Of a DNA stretch of 64,000 nucleotides, positions 29,569-36,023 are shown in pieces. A program made the position numbers and the translations under genes. Location: the NCBI GenBank assembly GCA_963665665.1, contig OY762428.1, positions 1,312,001 through 1,376,000 of the forward strand, in the 5' to 3' direction. This DNA is from Candidatus Kapaibacterium sp. Lineage in GTDB: Bacteria > Bacteroidota > Ignavibacteria > Kapaibacteriales > UBA2268. The notes beneath the pieces were generated by a model. It was not told the DNA's origin, ran no database searches, and worked only from the letters and a program-made list of their open reading frames with translations. The number at the start of each line of letters is the position of its first letter. The stretch's first letter is position 1.

Positions 29569-31464
29569 ATGACAATCGAACAATATCTTGATAGTATTAA
29601 CAGCCGCTATAAACTTGGAAACGCTACCGAACACAGTTTCCGCGGAGACCTTCAGCAGCTTATCGAAACTATTGCGCCCGGCGTTCAGGCAACGAACGAA
29701 CCAAAAAGGCAGTCCTGCGGCGCTCCCGATTATATTATAACGAAAGGAAATATCCCGCTCGGATTTATCGAGGCGAAAGATATTGGCGCCGCCGACCTCG
29801 AGGGAAAGAAAAAAGCCGGCAATAAGGAACAGTTCGACAGGTACAGGGCTTCGCTTTCAAATCTTATATTTACCGATTACCTGCGCTTCCATCTTTACCA
29901 CGACGGCAAGATTGTCAGCAAGATAGAAATTGCCGAAATCGACGATAAAGGAATAACAGCCTTACCTGATAATTTCCCCGCTTTCGAAAGCCTTATAAGG
30001 GATTTCTGCACTCATATAGGCCAAACAATTAAAAGCCCCAAACAGCTTGCCAAAATGATGGCCGGAAAAGCCCGGCTGCTTTCCGATATTATCGAAAAGG
30101 CGCTGAACAGCGACGAAGAGAACGAGGAAAACAGCTCGCTTAATGACCAGATGGCGGCATTCAGGGAAATACTTATTCACGACATCACCCCGAAAGGCTT
30201 CGCGGATGTTTACGCCCAGACTATCGCCTACGGTATGTTTGCCGCGAGGCTTCACGACGAAACACTGAATGATTTCAGCAGGCAGGAAGCCGCCGAGCTG
30301 ATCCCGAAATCCAATCCCTTCCTGCGCAAGCTGTTCGGATATATTTCAGGTCCGGATATTGACGACCGCATTAAATGGGTGGTGGACAGCCTTGCCGAAA
30401 TTTTCCTTGCCACCAATGTTGAACAGATTCTGAAAAACTACGGCAGGCAAACAAAAACCGAAGACCCCGTTATCCATTTCTACGAAACTTTCCTGAGCGA
30501 GTACGACCCAAAACTGCGTAAATCGCGCGGCGTATGGTATACGCCCCAGCCCGTTGTAAATTTCATTGTCCGTGCGGTGGATGACATTCTGAAAACAGAG
30601 TTCGGGCTGCCGCAGGGACTGGCAGATACATCAAAAACAAAAATAAAAATTGATACCCAGGAACGGGACAAACGCTCTTCCACGGGCTTCAAACAAATGG
30701 AACAGGAAGTGCACAGGGTGCAGATTCTTGATCCCGCGACGGGTACGGGAACTTTCCTTGCCGAGGTGATCAGGCACATACACCGGAAGTTTAAAGGACA
30801 GCAGGGAATATGGAGCAGCTACGTGGAAAACCACCTGCTACCGCGCCTGAACGGATTTGAACTGCTGATGGCAAGCTATGCGATGGCACACCTGAAACTT
30901 GACCTGCTGCTGAAAGATACAGGATACGTCCCGACAAAGGAACAGCGTTTCCGTGTATTCCTGACCAACAGCCTGGAAGAACACCACCCCGACACCGGAA
31001 CGCTATGGGTAAACTGGCTGAGCGCCGAGGCAAACGAGGCCAACCACATAAAACGCGACACCCCGGTTATGGTTGTTATGGGTAACCCGCCCTATTCGGT
31101 CAGTAGTTCAAATAAATCCGAATGGATAGAAAAGTTAATGGCGGACTACAAGAAAGACCTGAACGAGAGGAATATCCAGCCGCTTTCGGATGATTATATT
31201 AAGTTTATCCGTTATGGGCAATATTATATCGAGAAGAACGGCAGCGGAATACTTGCCTATATATCCAATAATTCATTCATTGACGGGATAATTCACAGGA
31301 AAATGAGAGAACATCTGCTGAAAACATTCGACAAAATTTATATCCTTGACCTGCACGGCAACAGCAAGAAAAAGGAAACAACCCCCGAGGGCGGAAAGGA
31401 CGAGAATGTTTTCGATATTATGCAGGGGGTGAGTATTAATATTTTTGTGAAAAAGAGCAGTTAA
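29569..31464 (+). CDS. Type IIG/ISP-like restriction-modification enzyme, N-terminal part (nuclease + N6-adenine methyltransferase)
   Basis: APDY...GFIEAKD nuclease motif, RGVWYTP, ILDPATGTGTF (motif I), GNPPY (motif IV); ends at VSINIFVKKSS stop. Confidence 0.9.
   Translation: MTIEQYLDSINSRYKLGNATEHSFRGDLQQLIETIAPGVQATNEPKRQSCGAPDYIITKGNIPLGFIEAKDIGAADLEGKKKAGNKEQFDRYRASLSNLIFTDYLRFHLYHDGKIVSKIEIAEIDDKGITALPDNFPAFESLIRDFCTHIGQTIKSPKQLAKMMAGKARLLSDIIEKALNSDEENEENSSLNDQMAAFREILIHDITPKGFADVYAQTIAYGMFAARLHDETLNDFSRQEAAELIPKSNPFLRKLFGYISGPDIDDRIKWVVDSLAEIFLATNVEQILKNYGRQTKTEDPVIHFYETFLSEYDPKLRKSRGVWYTPQPVVNFIVRAVDDILKTEFGLPQGLADTSKTKIKIDTQERDKRSSTGFKQMEQEVHRVQILDPATGTGTFLAEVIRHIHRKFKGQQGIWSSYVENHLLPRLNGFELLMASYAMAHLKLDLLLKDTGYVPTKEQRFRVFLTNSLEEHHPDTGTLWVNWLSAEANEANHIKRDTPVMVVMGNPPYSVSSSNKSEWIEKLMADYKKDLNERNIQPLSDDYIKFIRYGQYYIEKNGSGILAYISNNSFIDGIIHRKMREHLLKTFDKIYILDLHGNSKKKETTPEGGKDENVFDIMQGVSINIFVKKSS
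31346..31464 (+). repeat. Direct repeat: end of RM N-half, duplicated at 32469-32584
   Basis: ttgacctgcacggcaacagcaagaaaaaggaaac...gtattaatatttttgtgaaaaa present twice. Confidence 0.9.
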
Positions 31465-31520
31465 TATCATTATATATCAAATAAGTTTCTATCATTTTTT
31501 CAATAATCAGGGAGAAGATT

Positions 31521-32363
31521 ATGAAAGCAATAGAAAAGCAAAAAAATATATTCGAAGCAATAAAGAAAACAAATGATGAAGGAATAGAATACTGGTCTGC
31601 CCGGGAATTAGGAAAAGTTCTGGATTACAATGACTATCGAAATTTTCAAAAAGTTATAGAAAAATCCAAAATTGCCTGTAGCAATAGTCATAATGATATC
31701 GAAGACCATTTCGTTGACGTCACCGAAATGGTTCAGATCGGTTCTGGCGCACAAAGAACGATCTCAACCGTTTGGCTTTCGAGATATGCTTGCTATCTGA
31801 TCGTCCAAAATGCCGATCCACAAAAAGAAATTGTAGCCCTTGGCCAAACCTATTTTGCTTATCAAACAAGAAAACAGGAAATTGAGGAATCAGAAGAATA
31901 TAATTCTCTTGAAACCGAAGATAAGAAACGACTTTATTTGAGAAATCAGTTGAAAAAACATAACATTCAGTTGATGAGCGCCGCAAAAAATGCTGGCGTT
32001 GAAACAAATCTTGACTATGGAATTTTTCAGAACCACGGCTATAAAGGGCTGTATGGAGGCCTTGATCAAAAAGCAATTCATAAACTTAAGGGACTAAAGA
32101 AGAGTCAGAAAATTCTTGATCACATGGGTAGTACCGAATTGGCGGCTAATTTATTCAGGGCAACCCAAACTGAAGAAAAGCTGAAAAAGGATAATATTAA
32201 AGATAAAAGGCTGGCAAATAAAACTCATTATAATGTTGGAAAAGAAGTAAGGAATACCATAAAAAAAATCGGGGGTGAAATGCCGGAAAACATGCCGACT
32301 GAAGACAGCATTAAAAAAATTGAAAGAAAAGAAGCAAAAGAACTGAAATCCAAAAAATCCTGA
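31521..32363 (+). CDS. dinD: DNA damage-inducible protein D (Bro-N-like N-terminus)
   Basis: EYWSAREL, LSRYACYLIVQNADP, QTYFAYQTRKQE, FQNHGYKGLYGG, ILDHMGSTELAANLFRATQ. Confidence 0.9.
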   Translation: MKAIEKQKNIFEAIKKTNDEGIEYWSARELGKVLDYNDYRNFQKVIEKSKIACSNSHNDIEDHFVDVTEMVQIGSGAQRTISTVWLSRYACYLIVQNADPQKEIVALGQTYFAYQTRKQEIEESEEYNSLETEDKKRLYLRNQLKKHNIQLMSAAKNAGVETNLDYGIFQNHGYKGLYGGLDQKAIHKLKGLKKSQKILDHMGSTELAANLFRATQTEEKLKKDNIKDKRLANKTHYNVGKEVRNTIKKIGGEMPENMPTEDSIKKIERKEAKELKSKKS

Positions 32364-32434
32364 TTTTCAACCTACCATATCGGTGACGTCAACGATATGG
32401 TCTAAATGTATAAATAAAAAGAGTTAAGAAAACA

Positions 32435-32584
32435 ATGAAAAAAATAGATAATGCCCGGGTTTATCACTTTGACCTGCACGGCAACAGCAAGAAAAAGGAA
32501 ACACCCCCTGAGGGCGGAAAGGACGAGAATGTTTTCGATATTATGCAGGGCGTTAGTATTAATATTTTTGTGAAAAAAGGCTAA
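32435..32584 (+). pseudogene. 49-aa chimeric RM fragment (start of C-half fused to end of N-half)
   Basis: Manual translation MKKIDNARVYHFDLHGNSKKKETPPEGGKDENVFDIMQGVSINIFVKKG*. Confidence 0.8.
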
Positions 32585-32684
32585 TGCAGATATGTCAATA
32601 ATTAACAATCCTGATTTTAAAGTGGCCTAATTTGACCACTTTAAAGTAAATTGTCAAATTATAAATTAATCTATTAGGTGTATA

Positions 32685-33494
32685 GTGAAAAATACAAAAA
32701 TTGTTGTTCTCGGCAGTGAAATAACTGTACATCAGATAAAAGAACAGGACTATATATCTTTAACAGATATGGTAAAAGATATTGAAAACGGATTGGCTCT
32801 TATTGAAAAGTGGCTTCGTAATAAAAATACAATTGAGTTTTTGGGTATCTGGGAAGAAGTCTATAATCCCGGCTTTAATTCCCCCGAATTCGAGGGAATT
32901 AAAAATCAAGCAGGTTTGAACAGATTTATTTTGTCAGTAAAACAATGGGTAGCAAAAACAAATTCTATCGGCATTATTGCTAAAGCAGGTAGATACGGTG
33001 GCACTTATGCACATAAGGACATTGCTTTCGAATTCGCTTCATGGGTATCACCACAATTTAAAATTTACCTTATCAAAGAATTTCAACGCCTGAAAGAAGA
33101 GGAGCAAAAGCATTTAGGCTGGTCTGCCAAACGCGAACTGGCAAAGATCAATTACCACATACACACGGACGCCATCAAAGAAAACCTGATACCTAAGGAA
33201 CTCACGCCGAAGCAAACTTCTGTCATTTATGCCAGCGAGGCCGACGTGCTGAATATGGCATTGTTCGGAATTACCGCTAAGCAGTGGCGGGATCAAAACC
33301 CCGGCATGAAAGGCAACATTCGTGACTATGCCTCGATAAACGAATTGATTTGCCTTTCCAACATGGAAAATATCAATGCCGTTTTCATTAATGAGAATAT
33401 ACCCCAAAAGGAACGCCTTATAAAACTGAATAAAATTGCTATACAGCAAATGAGCATTTTAGAAAACATTGAAAACAAAAAATTACTGAGATAA
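32685..33494 (+). CDS. KilA-N domain DNA-binding protein
   Basis: DYISLTDM, WLRNKNTIEFLGIWE, GRYGGTYAHKDIAFEFASW, KINYHIHTDAIKENLIP. Confidence 0.88.
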   Translation: MKNTKIVVLGSEITVHQIKEQDYISLTDMVKDIENGLALIEKWLRNKNTIEFLGIWEEVYNPGFNSPEFEGIKNQAGLNRFILSVKQWVAKTNSIGIIAKAGRYGGTYAHKDIAFEFASWVSPQFKIYLIKEFQRLKEEEQKHLGWSAKRELAKINYHIHTDAIKENLIPKELTPKQTSVIYASEADVLNMALFGITAKQWRDQNPGMKGNIRDYASINELICLSNMENINAVFINENIPQKERLIKLNKIAIQQMSILENIENKKLLR

Positions 33495-34667
33495 CAATGC
33501 CAAAACAAAATGAACACGCCCGGGTTTACCACTTTGACCTTTACGGGAAAAGAAATGAAAAATATGAATTCCTGAAGGAAAATACTCTTGATTCAATCCG
33601 GTGGAACGAGCTTGAAAACAGGAAACCGGAATATTTCTTTGTTAAAAAGGATTGGGAAGAGGAAATAGATTACTGTAAGGGATTTCGTCTAGATAAATTA
33701 TTTGAAAAATATGCTAGTGGTATTAAAACTCATGATGATAAAAATCTAATTTCAAATAAAAAATTCAATGAAAACAATAACAAGTATTTTTATAGACCAT
33801 TTGATGTTCAATTTATCAATTATGATTTGAATAAAGTTAAAAGACATAGATTTTCTTTGATGAAACATCTTATGGTAAATAATATAGCTATCCTTATTCC
33901 GAGACAAGCCATTACTTATCGATTTGGATTTTTTATCAGTAAAGGTTTAACAGATATTAATTATACAGGCACTGCCGGACAATTTGGGGCTGGTTTAACA
34001 TTCCCCCTCTATCTCTACCCCGAGGATAACGGGCAGCAGACTTTAGAGCAGGCAACCACCCCTGCTCCTCCGGCGGAGGGGAATAGGAAACCCAACCTGA
34101 ATATGGAAATTGTAAGCAAAATAGCCGGGAAGATAGGCGCAGGATTCGTTCCGGAAAAATTCCCCTCCGGTGGAGGGGTGGCGAGCGCAGCGAGACGGGG
34201 TGGTGTTTCCGACTCCTCCACCCGAGGGGTGGCCGAAGGCTCCCGACACGTCGGGACAGGCCGGGGTGGTGTTTCTTACTCCAACGGAGGAGATAATGGT
34301 GAGGTTCTGGCCCCGATAGACATTCTCGACTACATATACGCCGTACTGCATTCTCCCGCCTACAGGGAAAAATACAAGGAATTCCTGAAAATAGATTTCC
34401 CGAGGGTTCCCTATCCCAAAAACGCGGACACATTTTGGAAGCTTGTAAAGATCGGCGGCGAACTGCGGCAGATACACCTGCTGGAAAGCCCCGCCGTGGA
34501 AAACTACATAACCCAATACCCCGTTGACGGCGACAACACAGTAGAAAAACCCGTCTATGAACAAGGGGCTTCAGCCCCTTGCACCCCTCATACCGAAGGA
34601 GGGGATGAGGAACAAAACATTTCTTCTGATACAAATTCCCCTCCTCGTGGAGGAGGGGATAAAGGGG

Positions 34668-36023
34668 CATATGCGCTAACTTAGTGAAAATAAGTAATTC
34701 ATACTACTTTGCCTTTTTCGATGTCCTTCTTTTAGGCAATTAGAAACATCATCCCAGTTGTTAATACATTGATACAAAGTAATACCGGGACTGATGATTT
34801 TCAATAAAATATCTTTAACAAATACATTTTCACGCCATTGTGATGTACTCCTTTTATCATTCTCTTTTATTAAACCTGTAGCCCCAGGGGGAAAAACGCT
34901 CACCTTCATCGATAATAGCCTGAGTAAGGAGAGCTGTGATCATCTTAGCATAAAGCCACGCTCGTGCAGAGTTTTTATCTTTTTTTGGTAAATGCCCCAA
35001 GCCAAATTGACTTTTTAGTTTTTTAAATGAAATTTCAACCTGCCATCTCATTCTATATAATTCTAAGATATTATTAGAAGATATATCATTAATCAAAGAA
35101 GTCACCAAAACAATATAATCATTAAGTCCTAAAGCTGTAGAACTGATTGTCTGTTGTTTTCTAGCAAAATTCTTTTTTGCTTTCTTTCTGGATAACTCAG
35201 CTTGCTCCTTGCTTTTTTTGATAGCACATATACGTACAGGAATCTTTTTATTTTTTGAGGAGGAGGAGGAAATATAAAATATTTTGTCAAATATTTGATC
35301 TAACTTTAAACTTTTTAATTCTTTAATAATATCAACTTTATCATTTTTACTATTATATAGTGTAAAACCTTTATGCTTATATCTGACAACAAAATTTGCT
35401 TTCTTTCCGAGAATTTCTGAAATACCCTTATAACTGCAATATGCTCTGTCAATTAAAAAAAGATCAGAAGAGTTAATTTTGAAATTAGATATAGACTCAC
35501 CGACTTTTGGGCTGGTAATAATAAATTCGTCACACTTGAGGTTGAACAGATTATGGCTGTAATGAAGTCTCCAGTCAGTACCTGTTGACCCCGGCTCAGT
35601 AACAACAGACGCATCGATACATCTTACATTGAAATCCGACAGCCATTCTGGGGAATCTAATGATATCCCCCTATTATGAATCAATCCTAATGCAATCCAG
35701 CGAAGCCAATCAGCAGACGTCCTCATTTTTTTTAATAACGCAACATCTGATATATCTATATTTCTTTCATATTTAAGCTTAGTAGCAACCACCCTCATAG
35801 AATGCCCCGTTGCTACATGCATAAGTATTGCTCGAAGTTGCTCAGAAGGTGAATCAAATGCCCTGCGACGTTGGAAAGCCTGGAGTTCTTTAGCCTTTAA
35901 TTCCCATCCCAAAGGAAGTAAGGTTGTAACTACATCCCATTCTTCTATATGCTTGTTGTACTTTTCCATTTACAAATATAAAAAAATTATATATAAAAAT
36001 CAAACACTAAGTTAGCGCTTATG
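34668..36023 (-). mobile_element. IS4-family insertion sequence, 1356 bp
   Basis: 19-bp TIRs catatgcgctaacttagtg (34668-34686) and cactaagttagcgcttatg (36005-36023), 1 mismatch; 11-bp TSD ggataaagggg at 34657-34667 and 36024-36034. Confidence 0.93.
34857..35969 (-). CDS. IS4-family DDE transposase
   Basis: IDAS, LIDRAY, YRMRWQVEISFKKLK (YREK signature). Confidence 0.92.
   Translation of the reverse strand: MEKYNKHIEEWDVVTTLLPLGWELKAKELQAFQRRRAFDSPSEQLRAILMHVATGHSMRVVATKLKYERNIDISDVALLKKMRTSADWLRWIALGLIHNRGISLDSPEWLSDFNVRCIDASVVTEPGSTGTDWRLHYSHNLFNLKCDEFIITSPKVGESISNFKINSSDLFLIDRAYCSYKGISEILGKKANFVVRYKHKGFTLYNSKNDKVDIIKELKSLKLDQIFDKIFYISSSSSKNKKIPVRICAIKKSKEQAELSRKKAKKNFARKQQTISSTALGLNDYIVLVTSLINDISSNNILELYRMRWQVEISFKKLKSQFGLGHLPKKDKNSARAWLYAKMITALLTQAIIDEGERFSPWGYRFNKRE

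What the first reader, a model, noticed from the sequence alone, without database searches (positions are those of the whole stretch)
31705..32903. Two DNA-binding passenger genes each encode a 28-30 bp palindrome that is repeated, with compensatory changes, just outside the gene
Seen: dinD contains accatttcgttgacgtcaccgaaatggt (31705-31732, reading HFVDVTEMV), and 10 bp after its stop is accatatcggtgacgtcaacgatatggt (32374-32401), the inverted copy with only 2 changes that form a compensatory pair. KilA-N contains tttaa-ttccc-cc-g-aatt-c-ga-gggaa-ttaaa (32874-32903, FNSPEFEGIK), and 39 bp before its start is tttaa-agtgg-cc-t-aatt-t-ga-ccact-ttaaa (32616-32645): same scaffold, both 5-bp arms replaced yet still complementary, preceded by the same aatcc (reads NPDFKVA*FDHFK vs NPGFNSPEFEGIK). 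Two different protein families showing the same design side by side is unlikely by chance. Inference: either the protein binds or acts on a site written in its own coding sequence (changing the site also changes the residues), or these are hairpin recombination sites that swap or mobilise gene halves. I know of no named system for this.
Basis: partly seen in the sequence, partly recalled or inferred. Interest (0 to 1): 0.9.

Follow-up and report, generated by a model that had tools for sequence, protein, structure and literature searches.

The report
Hairpin palindromes written inside passenger genes
Two small DNA-binding genes lodged inside a restriction enzyme gene each carry a 28-30 base palindrome in their coding sequence; the same feature recurs across their whole gene families, including E. 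coli dinD, which points to an undescribed DNA signal that travels with these genes.

Summary
All four palindromes are at the stated coordinates and far exceed chance. The in-gene copies are not local oddities. About 97% of 109 dinD motif DNAs from many phyla, and E. coli K-12 dinD, carry a palindrome at D-H-F-x-D|V-x-K-M-V. About 96% of 93 KilA-N motif DNAs carry one at F-N-x-x-E|F-x-x-I-K. The arms differ between homologues but stay complementary. Some double changes alter otherwise conserved residues, and synonymous codons are bent towards pairing. A third passenger family, DUF1016/YhcG, behaves the same way. The flanking copies are "solo" palindromes of the same families. Such solos recur next to homologues in other genomes and sit at cassette junctions. 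One KilA-N clade lost the in-gene palindrome and carries a perfect copy right after its stop codon. P2' is a different allele class, not a compensated copy of P2. Best reading: a gene-linked, hairpin-forming DNA site selected for intrastrand pairing, probably acted on by the gene's own DNA-binding protein, with junctions forming beside it. Function is inferred, not shown. No inversion and no half-gene swapping was detected. I found no published description.

The parts
29569..31464 (+). N-terminal piece (631 aa) of a split type IIG restriction-methyltransferase, ending ..INIFVKKSS*
   Evidence: Pfam N6_Mtase, MmeI_Mtase and Eco57I. PADLOC REase_MTase_IIG PDLC03610, E 2e-235. Intact orthologues in L228 and L236 read through this point.
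31521..32363 (+). dinD (Bro-N domain; DNA damage-inducible protein D family), first passenger gene
   Evidence: NCBIfam NF008573 equivalog, 409.8 bits against a cut-off of 242. Pfam Bro-N. PADLOC PDC-S13.
31705..31732 (.). P1, the in-gene dinD palindrome, centred on the D|V codon boundary (DHFVD|VTEMV)
   Evidence: Family-wide covariation. In the dinD model it encodes the end of a helix and the first strand of a beta-hairpin.
32353..32370 (+). 18-nt block AAAAATCCTGATTTTCAA. It contains the commonest coding form of the KilA-N motif N-P-D-F, supplies the dinD stop codon, and is repeated at 32604-32621.
   Evidence: Direct repeat D9, pattern count, gap-free alignment of the two units. The same 12-mer links hairpin units in L144.
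32374..32401 (.). P1', a solo dinD-type palindrome: an inverted copy of P1, 10 nt after the dinD stop and 33 nt before the next ATG
   Evidence: Comparable solos after or before dinD in L031, L036, L039, L059, L062, L078 and L100.
32409..32415 (+). TATAAAT box between P1' and the next start codon; a second one sits at 32660-32666, at the same offset after P2'
   Evidence: Alignment A5. TATAAT or TATAAAT also lies between solo and ATG in L059 and L062. The promoter role is inferred only; the sigma-70 scan was uninformative.
32435..32584 (+). 49-aa chimeric ORF 'B': the start of a C-terminal piece (MKKIDNARVYHFDL) joined to the end of an N-terminal piece (HGNSKKKE..IFVKKG*)
   Evidence: Direct repeats D1 (118 nt, 94%) and D2; ORF list. 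Origin by unequal recombination at TTTGACCT between two passenger-bearing alleles is inferred.
32616..32645 (.). P2', a solo KilA-N-type palindrome of another allele class (reads FKVA*FDHFK), 39 nt before the KilA-N start
   Evidence: The allele class occurs in real genes. Comparable upstream solos in L144, L150, L184, L043 and K4.
32685..33494 (+). KilA-N domain gene, second passenger
   Evidence: Pfam KilA-N, E 2.7e-23. PADLOC PDC-S22, E 1.9e-133. An orthologous MTase locus, L227, carries a KilA-N gene alone in the same slot.
32874..32903 (.). P2, the in-gene KilA-N palindrome, centred on the E|F codon boundary (FNSPE|FEGIK)
   Evidence: All 6 of 6 genomic KilA-N copies have one with different arms. 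Family-wide covariation.
33497..34684 (+). C-terminal piece (395 aa, specificity domain) of the split type IIG enzyme, starting MPKQNEHARVYHFDL
   Evidence: Pfam Type_ISP_C, E 6.6e-52. PADLOC PDLC03610 positions 788-999.

Best explanation
The four palindromes belong to two families of gene-linked hairpin elements.

Shown:
1. Nearly every dinD and KilA-N gene, and most DUF1016/YhcG genes, carries a 22-32 nt palindrome at one fixed place in its coding sequence. Its arms drift but stay self-complementary.
2. The constraint acts on the nucleic acid, not the protein. It fixes synonymous codons and drives paired changes of otherwise conserved residues.
3. The element belongs to the gene locus, not to the codons. 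One KilA-N clade let the in-gene copy decay and carries a perfect copy directly after its stop codon.
4. Extra solo copies occur only beside these genes, just before a start codon or just after a stop codon. Truncated copies and relics repeatedly end at the edge of a hairpin.

Inferred:
1. Because all four base pairs are accepted at the variable positions, and G-T is no commoner than A-C, the selected property is intrastrand pairing of DNA (hairpin or cruciform), not a base-specific duplex site or a sense-RNA fold.
2. Writing the site inside the ORF keeps it attached to a single-gene cassette whose homology ends at its start and stop codons.
3. The most likely actor is the cassette's own N-terminal DNA-binding domain, recognising the structure. 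Processing at the hairpin (cutting, stalling or template switching) would create the junctions and leave solo copies.
4. P1' and P2' are such junction copies. P1' marks the 3' end of the dinD cassette. P2' is a relic of an earlier KilA-N allele at the 5' end of the present one. The two passenger-bearing alleles were then joined by unequal recombination, which made ORF B.
For: Pairing and covariation:
- dinD: 106 of 109 distinct motif DNAs have at least 9 of 15 pairs. In alignment A3, 90.0% of cells pair against 75.4% in shuffles (0 of 500 reach it), with 224 double-change cells against 68.6, and 28-55% paired in slid controls.
- KilA-N: 89 of 93 motif DNAs pair. In A4, 93.1% pair against 76.7%, with 214 double-change cells against 61.3.
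- Paired codon changes that alter conserved residues: cat/atg to cac/gtg in L058 and L083; cat/atg to gat/atc in L130, L131 and L133.
- Synonymous sites: the E codon before the centre is GAA in 88 of 88 against 65% background. The F codon after it is TTC in 81 of 88 against 31%.
- E. coli K-12 dinD has 13 of 15 pairs.
- DUF1016: hairpin score of 10 or more in 18 of 33, against 0 of 165 codon shuffles and 0 of 33 other windows of the same genes.

DNA rather than sense RNA:
- Inner-stem mismatches are G-T 17 against A-C 24 in dinD, and about 32 against 28 in KilA-N.

Gene linkage:
- L141, L142, L143 and L146 lack the in-gene palindrome (3-7 of 15 pairs). Each has a perfect 30-38 nt copy 0-1 nt after the stop codon, in four different genomic contexts.
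- Solos are local. In the L078 genome the palindrome occurs only at that locus, 4 places in 7.7 Mb.
- In this genome, P1-type palindromes occur only at P1 and P1'.
- In 7 of 8 dinD loci with solos, the solo arms match the resident gene.

Junctions beside hairpins:
- L043: a 73-aa KilA-N ORF stops 2 codons after its palindrome, and dinD starts 11 nt later.
- A Mannheimia phage has a 76-aa KilA-N ORF that stops 4 codons after its palindrome.
- Fragments in L168 and L175 begin about 25 nt before the hairpin.
- L150 keeps a half hairpin, and L144 and L184 have tandem relics.
- 45-nt direct repeats containing the hairpin flank dinD in L078.

The likely actor:
- The dinD model (pLDDT 86) has a winged DNA-binding N-domain, and its top fold matches are the DNA-binding dimer DdrC.
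Against: - No binding, cleavage or recombination has been shown for any of these proteins on any hairpin.
- No recombinase was identified.
- Among intact genes, recombination breakpoints do not peak at the palindrome, and homology between similar genes in different contexts ends at ORF ends, not at the hairpin.
- Upstream KilA-N solos carry arms of other allele classes than the resident gene in 0 of 7 matching cases. They could be plain deletion scars.
- In KilA-N the constraint runs through the centre (GAA 88 of 88), which a hairpin loop does not need.
- The G-T against A-C comparison is confounded by codon constraints and by relatedness of the sequences.
- E. coli dinD sits in a stable chromosomal context with no solo in the ~115 nt after its stop that I read by eye.
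- A few family members lack any palindrome: L045, L048, L081, Riemerella phage RAP44 and Che8 gp49.
Confidence: 0.42

Rival explanations
1. RNA hairpin. The palindrome folds in the mRNA, in the coding region, 5' leader or 3' end. It serves promoter-independent autoregulation or stability, for example by binding the gene's own product or an RNase. That would suit promoterless cassettes inserted in foreign operons.
For: - The element works inside the ORF, just upstream of a start codon, or directly after a stop codon, all of which lie within the transcript.
- The sense strands fold at -12.7 to -15.6 kcal/mol, with z-scores of -2.2 to -4.6.
- G-U is somewhat commoner than A-C when the outermost pairs are included: KilA-N about 84 against 28.
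Against: - In the inner stem, G-T and A-C mismatches are about equal.
- Solos occur in either orientation. P1' is an inverted copy, so its RNA would show a G-A mismatch where P1 shows U-C.
- Solos are often perfect palindromes through the loop.
- There is no Rfam match.
- There is no T-run after the stems, so they are not intrinsic terminators.
Confidence: 0.2
2. Classical duplex operator. A symmetric dimer of the encoded protein reads both half-sites base-specifically, and each paralogue has co-evolved its own site. In the boldest form, the residues encoded by the site help read it.
For: - All three families are DNA-binding proteins, and the palindrome lies in the coding region of the DNA-binding domain or linker.
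- Six paralogues in one genome have six different arm sets.
- The N-terminal domain is far more variable than the rest, for example 48% against 94% identity in one pair.
- dinD solos match the resident arms in 7 of 8 loci.
- Solos sit about 20-60 nt upstream of start codons, next to TATAAAT boxes.
- In KilA-N the centre GAATTC is fixed even at synonymous sites.
Against: - More than a dozen arm variants occur among proteins 60-80% identical, and every Watson-Crick pair is accepted at the variable positions. That would demand an implausibly fast change of specificity.
- KilA-N upstream solos do not match the resident gene.
- A continuous 11-14 bp per half-site is long for one winged-helix monomer (general knowledge, recalled).
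Confidence: 0.12
3. No function. Quasi-palindromes seeded by conserved residues (F-N..E-F..I-K; D-H-F.D-V.K-M-V) are kept perfect by templated (strand-switch) mutation. Solos are deletion scars that survive because hairpins stop resection.
For: - Part of each palindrome follows from conserved amino acids.
- Paired changes in one step are what templated mutagenesis produces (recalled knowledge of quasi-palindrome hotspots).
- Relics and truncated copies end at hairpin edges.
Against: - Palindromes of this size are rare in the genome: 37 of 28 nt and 64 of 26 nt. They are concentrated in these families.
- The position is fixed across phyla, and three unrelated families share the trait.
- The clade that lost the in-gene copy gained a perfect external copy that moves with the gene into four contexts.
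- Synonymous codon bias runs against genomic usage.
Confidence: 0.12
4. Invertible switch. P1 and P1' are inverted repeats that flip the 641-bp segment between them, truncating dinD after ..TEMV in the flipped state.
For: A 30-nt inverted repeat, 93% complementary, flanks the C-terminal two thirds of dinD (I1). In the flipped state the frame would read ..DMVG* (read).
Against: - A 1101-nt contig spans both repeats in the reference orientation in all three runs of the source sample, and no inversion joint was listed. Contigs cannot show rare variants.
- Most dinD genes have no second copy; 8 loci do (108 scanned, plus L039 and the window).
- Solos elsewhere are direct as often as inverted.
Confidence: 0.03

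Closest known systems
Rickettsia palindromic elements (RPE): protein-coding palindromes
   Same: Palindromic DNA sits in frame inside protein-coding genes without destroying them. I saw only passages and reference-list entries naming Ogata 2000 and 2002 in PMC4316617; the rest is recalled.
   Different: RPEs are 100-150 nt dispersed repeats of one sequence, inserted into many unrelated genes of one genus. Here the palindromes are 22-32 nt, sit at one homologous codon position of a family across phyla, each has its own arms, and they occur nowhere else in the genome.
Cis sites embedded in the gene of the protein that uses them: lambda ori iterons inside gene O, parS inside B. subtilis spo0J, pac inside terS, attP inside the SSV1 integrase gene
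   Same: A DNA-binding protein and its site are held together by writing the site into the coding sequence. DUF1016 genes even carry 2-3 tandem copies in a linker region, like iterons.
   Different: In those systems the site sequence is read base-specifically and the function is known. Here the arms are free as long as they pair. Three unrelated families share the design, and no binding is shown.
Integron attC sites and other structure-recognised DNA hairpins (IS200/IS605 ends, REP/RAYT) (recalled)
   Same: - Imperfect palindromes whose sequence varies while the fold is kept.
- In the L141 clade the hairpin starts at the stop codon and the cassette ends with it.
- Hairpin-bearing direct repeats flank dinD in L078.
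   Different: - There are no attC core sites. The ends read ACCAT..ATGGT or TTTAA..TTAAA.
- No integrase or HUH transposase was identified.
- The copies are not dispersed.
- Most copies lie inside the ORF, where recombination would split the gene.
Genes embedded in restriction-modification loci, and genes-in-pieces made by a free-standing selfish gene (PADLOC candidates PDC-S13 and PDC-S22; the split nrdA of phage Aeh1 is recalled)
   Same: dinD, KilA-N and DUF1016 occupy one linker of a type IIG enzyme gene. They split it into two translationally close ORFs in several genomes.
   Different: The coding palindromes have not, to my searches, been noted for these embedded genes.
Intragenic invertons (recalled)
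   Same: P1 and P1' are an inverted repeat with one arm inside the gene.
   Different: Each arm is itself a palindrome. No recombinase and no flipped reads were seen. The in-gene palindrome exists family-wide without a partner.

Membership tests
DinD (DNA damage-inducible protein D, NCBIfam NF008573) | Full-length match above the equivalog cut-off | tested here: met
   409.8 bits against a cut-off of 242, residues 3-277; Pfam Bro-N.
KilA-N domain proteins (Pfam PF04383) | Match above the gathering score | tested here: met
   82.3 bits against 23.8, residues 11-138; PADLOC PDC-S22.
Integron attC site | Conserved 7-bp core sites (RYYYAAC / GTTRRRY, recalled) at the outer ends of the imperfect palindrome | tested here: not met
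   The ends read ACCAT..ATGGT and TTTAA..TTAAA.
Integron attC site | Integron integrase and attI nearby | not tested
   I ran no search for IntI. The only Pfam hits obtained around the locus are MTase, Bro-N, KilA-N, Type_ISP_C and a DDE transposase.
REP / RAYT repeats | Many dispersed copies of one palindrome class in the genome | tested here: not met
   P1-type and P2-type palindromes occur only in or beside their genes. The L078 palindrome occurs at 4 places, all at one locus.
Rickettsia-type protein-coding palindromic elements | One repeated element inserted in many unrelated genes | tested here: not met
   The arms differ between copies, and all copies lie at the homologous codons of one family.
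Intrinsic terminator | GC-rich stem followed by a T-run | tested here: not met
   None of the 3 terminator-like sites coincides with P1, P1', P2 or P2'. The stems are followed by A-rich sequence.
Inverton (invertible segment) | Both orientations present in sequencing reads | tested here: inconclusive
   Only Logan contigs were available. They show the reference orientation, and contigs cannot show minor forms.
Self-encoded binding site (lambda O/ori type) | The encoded protein binds the site in its own gene | not testable with these tools
   No protein-DNA assay or prediction was available. I only have the dinD model with a winged DNA-binding domain and a DdrC-like fold.
Known RNA family (Rfam 15) | Covariance-model match | tested here: not met
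   There is no match at any of the four palindromes at E up to 1. The only hit is a spurious miRNA model at 34577-34665.

The most novel reading that the evidence does not exclude
Single-gene defence-island passengers (DinD, KilA-N, YhcG/DUF1016) may form a new class of minimal selfish modules. Each gene would carry, written into its own coding sequence, the DNA hairpin that its own product recognises by shape. The protein-hairpin pair would mediate the gene's own insertion, replacement or control wherever it lands, leaving solo hairpins as footprints. E. coli dinD, a gene studied since the first screens for damage-inducible loci, would then contain an unrecognised cis-acting site.
Probability: 0.25. 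Interest if true: 0.92.

Novelty: new variant of a known kind. Interest (0 to 1): 0.8.

Why it matters
- DinD, KilA-N and DUF1016 are among the commonest genes of unknown role in restriction-modification loci, defence islands, prophages and satellites.
- A conserved nucleic-acid signal inside all three, strong enough to override conserved amino acids and codon usage, is a concrete handle on what they do and how they move.
- It is directly testable in E. coli K-12, whose dinD carries the element.
- It is a caution for gene-family analysis. Part of the "conserved protein motif" in these families is dictated by DNA pairing.
- It gives a simple sequence signature (solo hairpins) for tracing past cassette turnover in defence loci.

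Tried and rejected
Tried without a useful result, or rejected:
- Inversion between P1 and P1'. Four runs were laid, all Logan contigs from one study. A 1101-nt contig spans both repeats in the reference orientation. Contigs break at P2, as expected of a 30-nt palindrome in a de Bruijn assembly. One skip joint, 31583 to 33549, has depth 2 and a 21-nt side and is too weak to use. No RNA holder was listed.
- Half-gene swapping at the hairpin. Max-chi-square breakpoints cluster at about residue 100 (KilA-N) and 85/120 (dinD), with only 4 of 561 and 25 of 800 significant pairs in the two 10-residue bins that span the palindrome. That test is confounded by unequal rates along the genes. Homology blocks between similar genes end at the start and stop codons.
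- Intrinsic terminators and sigma-70 promoters. The counts are no higher than in shuffles, and none lies at the palindromes.
- Rfam: nothing.
- KilA-N structure. The model is too poor to use (pLDDT 54.6), so I cannot place the peptide encoded by P2.
- Homology between the two passenger proteins: none.
- Sequence search of solved structures with the dinD profile: nothing below E 0.1.
- Literature. No paper holds both "KilA-N" and "palindrome". The dinD + "palindrom" search found 185 papers. The top one uses the word only for REP, and its dinD antisense site is at the 3' end of the gene. Searches on PDC-S13/S22, DUF1016/YhcG, Bro-N/KilA-N with hairpin terms, and a genome-wide E. coli inverted-repeat paper gave nothing; that paper has no occurrence of dinD in its main text. 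Supplements were closed, and the inverted-repeat map of PMC6060812 may list the dinD repeat there.
- Chance as an explanation for the 12-mer AATCCTGATTTT beside both solos. I reject it: it is the commonest coding form of N-P-D-F, and the same 12-mer links hairpin units in L144.
Full report
**What is at the locus.**
Window 29569-34684 is one type IIG restriction-methyltransferase gene in pieces. The parts, in order, are:
- an N-terminal ORF (29569-31464; N6_Mtase, MmeI_Mtase and Eco57I domains);
- dinD (31521-32363; Bro-N domain, NCBIfam DinD equivalog, PADLOC PDC-S13);
- a 49-aa chimeric ORF "B" (32435-32584);
- a KilA-N gene (32685-33494; PADLOC PDC-S22);
- the C-terminal specificity ORF (33497-34684; Type_ISP_C).

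ORF B joins the start of a C-piece (..ARVYHFDL) to the end of an N-piece (HGNSKKKE..IFVKKG), shown by direct repeats D1 and D2.

Orthologous loci show what this means.
- The enzyme is intact in L228 and L236, with linker ..INIFVKTG.KK.NELGKVYH.DL...
- In other genomes the same linker holds one passenger: KilA-N in L227, DUF1016/YhcG in L231, L232 and L237, and small ORFs in L226 and L229.
- N-pieces are 76-82% identical. C-pieces are only about 40% identical.

I infer that two alleles, one with dinD and one with KilA-N, were joined by unequal recombination at the shared TTTGACCT. That event made B.

**The observation.**
- P1 is 31705-31732.
- P1' is 32374-32401, 10 nt after the dinD stop. It is an inverted copy of P1 with one compensatory pair of changes.
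- P2 is 32874-32903.
- P2' is 32616-32645, 39 nt before the KilA-N GTG.

The genome of 5,458,198 bp holds only 37 palindromes of 28 nt with at most one mismatch. Three lie here and four in other KilA-N copies. At 26 nt there are 64. The dinD copy and the KilA-N copies among them are all centred on a codon boundary.

**The in-gene palindromes are family traits.**
- All 6 of 6 KilA-N copies in this genome have a 26-30 nt palindrome centred on the same E|F codon boundary. Each has different, complementary arms.
- In 40 relatives' genomes, 14 of 16 matched rows have at least 13 of 15 pairs.
- In 80 metagenome loci plus these, 89 of 93 distinct motif DNAs have at least 9 of 15 pairs.
- For dinD, 28 of 30 rows from the order-level search pair in at least 9 of 14 positions.
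- 106 of 109 distinct motif DNAs pair, drawn from the 80 genome contigs with the order-level loci added. The set spans Proteobacteria, Firmicutes, Chloroflexi, Chlamydiae, archaeal MAGs and others.
- E. coli K-12 dinD has 13 of 15 pairs at the same codons.

Formal counts:

| Family (alignment, call) | Cells paired | Shuffled (0 of 500 reach observed) | Double-change cells | Shuffled | Covariation | Shuffled | Slid controls |
|---|---|---|---|---|---|---|---|
| dinD (A3) | 90.0% | 75.4% | 224 | 68.6 | 0.405 | 0.153 | 28-55% paired |
| KilA-N (A4) | 93.1% | 76.7% | 214 | 61.3 | 0.469 | 0.177 | 36-56% paired |

The sequences are related, so these are not probabilities. The size of the effect and the slid controls are what count.

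**The constraint is on nucleic acid.**
- Paired changes alter residues that are otherwise nearly invariant. H/M becomes H/V through cac/gtg in L058 and L083. H/M becomes D/I through gat/atc in L130, L131 and L133. D/V becomes D/I through gat/atc in many genes.
- The synonymous choice ttt/ttc of Phe goes with Lys (aaa) or Glu (gaa) nine bases on, in 94 of 106 genes.
- In KilA-N the Glu codon before the centre is GAA in 88 of 88, against 65% elsewhere in the same genes. The Phe codon after it is TTC in 81 of 88, against 31%.
- At the variable stem positions all four Watson-Crick pairs occur. What is kept is pairing, not a base sequence.
- Inner-stem mismatches show no excess of G-T over A-C: 17 against 24 in dinD, and about 32 against 28 in KilA-N. 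That argues weakly against a constraint on the sense RNA alone.
- Pairing stops sharply at 14-15 bp in dinD, falling to 22% at the next position.

**A third family.**
The DUF1016/YhcG passengers found in the same MTase slot carry stems of 7-18 bp with 1-5 nt loops in the coding DNA just upstream of their P-W-G-H-N motif. These are often present as 2-3 tandem copies in frame. The hairpin score is 10 or more in 18 of 33 genes. It reaches that in 0 of 165 codon shuffles and in 0 of 33 other windows of the same genes. Here the centre is not on a codon boundary, so the in-frame symmetry seen in dinD and KilA-N is not the general rule.

**The element belongs to the locus, not to the codons.**
Four KilA-N genes, L141, L142, L143 and L146, are 76-80% identical to the window's protein. 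At these codons they read N-S-A-A-Y-E-E-I-M, with only 3-7 of 15 pairs. Each has a perfect 30-38 nt palindrome with the window-type arms starting 0-1 nt after its stop codon. The sequence beyond it, and upstream of about 25 nt before the ATG, differs between all four loci. So one copy per gene seems to be needed, and it can be inside or directly outside the ORF. When an outside copy exists, the inside one decays.

**What the flanking copies are.**
Solo palindromes of the family type occur beside homologues elsewhere.
- dinD solos after the stop: L031 (two; the first is a 40-nt palindrome), L039 and L100.
- dinD solos before the ATG: L059 and L062 (about 45 nt before), and L036 (two tandem 54-nt units upstream).
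- L078 has both: 45-nt direct repeats containing the hairpin on each side of the gene, plus a third copy.
- Counting: 10 real solos in 6 of the 108 loci scanned, after dropping 3 low-complexity false positives (L090, L127, L130). Adding L039, which was dropped there as a duplicate motif of L038, and the window gives 8 loci.
- In 7 of these 8 loci the solo arms match the resident gene. L062 carries another allele.
- In the L078 genome the palindrome occurs only at that locus.
- KilA-N solos lie 12-80 nt before the start codon in L144, L150, L184 (two), L043 and the window, and about 120 nt before it in K4. In L175 and the L141 clade they lie after the stop.
- The arms of the upstream KilA-N solos are those of other allele classes. 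P2' is the K-V-V-E|F-D-H-F-K class with the central GAA changed to TAA. It is not a compensated copy of P2.
- Some solos are in tandem with relics, linked by aacAATCCTGATTTT (L144). This is the commonest coding form of N-P-D-F and the same 12-mer that precedes both solos in the window.
- The two solo-bearing units of the window, 32336-32437 and 32587-32687, align without gaps. Each has the 18-mer, a 28 or 30 nt hairpin, then TATAAAT about 20 nt before the next start codon.

**Junctions sit beside hairpins.**
- In L043 a 73-aa KilA-N ORF stops two codons after its palindrome, and dinD starts 11 nt later.
- A Mannheimia phage has a 76-aa KilA-N ORF that stops four codons after its palindrome.
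- Extra KilA-N fragments in L168 and L175 begin about 25 nt before the hairpin.
- L150 keeps only a right arm.
- The KilA-N-like 12-mer at 32356-32367 ends exactly where the hairpin would start.

Against this, other truncated copies end later: K4 at residue 128, K5 at 118 and K6 at 93. Intact genes show no breakpoint peak at the hairpin.

**Protein context.**
- The dinD model (pLDDT 86.2) places D-H-F-V-D-V-T-E-M-V at the end of a short helix and along the first strand of a long beta-hairpin, residues 64-73 and 77-86, in the N-terminal domain.
- The best fold matches are Deinococcus DdrC chains, a DNA-binding dimer: E 3.6e-4, TM 0.37-0.47.
- The KilA-N model is not usable.

**Phage relatives.**
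- Staphylococcus phage EW ORF014 (13 of 15 pairs) and a Streptococcus satellite (13 consecutive pairs from the centre) keep the KilA-N palindrome.
- A Gordonia phage antirepressor keeps a GC-rich version of the Bro-N palindrome.
- Che8 gp49 and the Riemerella RAP44 dinD-like gene do not.

**Reading.**
I regard four points as shown:
1. The palindromes are real, selected and family-wide.
2. The constraint is on the nucleic acid.
3. The element is gene-linked and can move out of the ORF.
4. Solos are copies or relics of such elements at cassette junctions.

I infer, with moderate confidence, that the selected property is intrastrand pairing of DNA. I also infer that the site is recognised by shape, most likely by the cassette's own DNA-binding domain. 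Events at the hairpin would then generate the junctions and solos.

The rivals remain open: an mRNA hairpin, a base-specific operator, a mutationally maintained palindrome with deletion scars, and an inversion switch. They are scored in their own sections. Templated strand-switch mutation is, in any case, the likely route by which both arms change together (recalled knowledge).

**Novelty.**
I found no description of these palindromes in print. Supplements were closed and subscription journals are not covered. The nearest known things differ in defining features, set out in the membership table:
- the protein-coding palindromes of Rickettsia;
- sites embedded in the genes of their binding proteins;
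- structure-recognised recombination hairpins.

Noticed in passing
window 29569-34684; L226-L237: The type IIG enzyme gene has a recurrent passenger slot in the linker between the methylase and specificity domains. It is intact in two genomes. In seven fetched loci of other genomes (L226, L227, L229, L231, L232, L237; L230 is cut by its contig end) and in this genome it is split, and the slot is seen to hold KilA-N, DUF1016 or a small ORF in six of them, and dinD plus KilA-N here. N-pieces are about 78% identical and C-pieces about 40%, so the passenger may travel with the specificity domain.
   Followed up: partly
window 34067-34233 and 34574-34668: GC-rich small hairpin repeats (CCCCTCC-N3-GGAGGGG) lie in frame inside the C-terminal ORF of the enzyme. 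The motif occurs 38 times in the genome against 0 for the reversed control. It looks like a dispersed mini-repeat that can sit inside coding sequence.
   Followed up: partly
genome C1: 1839076, 1909826, 3239739, 3929502, 4590873, 4592302, 4593756: There is another palindrome family, AACC-N4-GG-TTAA-CC-N4-GGTT, with covarying arms. Three identical copies are spaced about 1.4 kb apart near 4.59 Mb. I did not identify it.
   Followed up: no
dinD model from window 31521-32360: The predicted DinD fold matches Deinococcus DdrC (8u0g_B, E 3.6e-4; the sequence profile gives only E 0.11). This may link two DNA-damage-induced DNA-binding proteins.
   Followed up: partly
window 34857-35969 (-): A DDE (IS4-like) transposase ORF sits directly downstream of the split enzyme gene.
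   Followed up: no
L043 970-1045; L018: dinD and KilA-N copies or fragments are neighbours in at least three unrelated loci: the window, L043 and L018. In L043 the pair follows a tRNA-like sequence.
   Followed up: partly
L030 1079-1143 and 2470-2534: In this locus dinD is flanked on both sides by pairs of a different palindrome (AACTCCTAAAT..). This looks like a cassette bounded by another hairpin type.
   Followed up: no
L273 (phage record MG065691.1, marked UNVERIFIED): At the 20 codons printed around the palindrome, this Campylobacter phage record reads the same as E. coli K-12 dinD. This may be contamination of the record.
   Followed up: no
L003 7386-7667 (+), genome C1 about 4459385-4459666: An XRE-type HTH gene is divergent from the truncated KilA-N copy K4, and the K4 upstream solo palindrome lies between them. 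This solo could equally be that regulator's operator.
   Followed up: no
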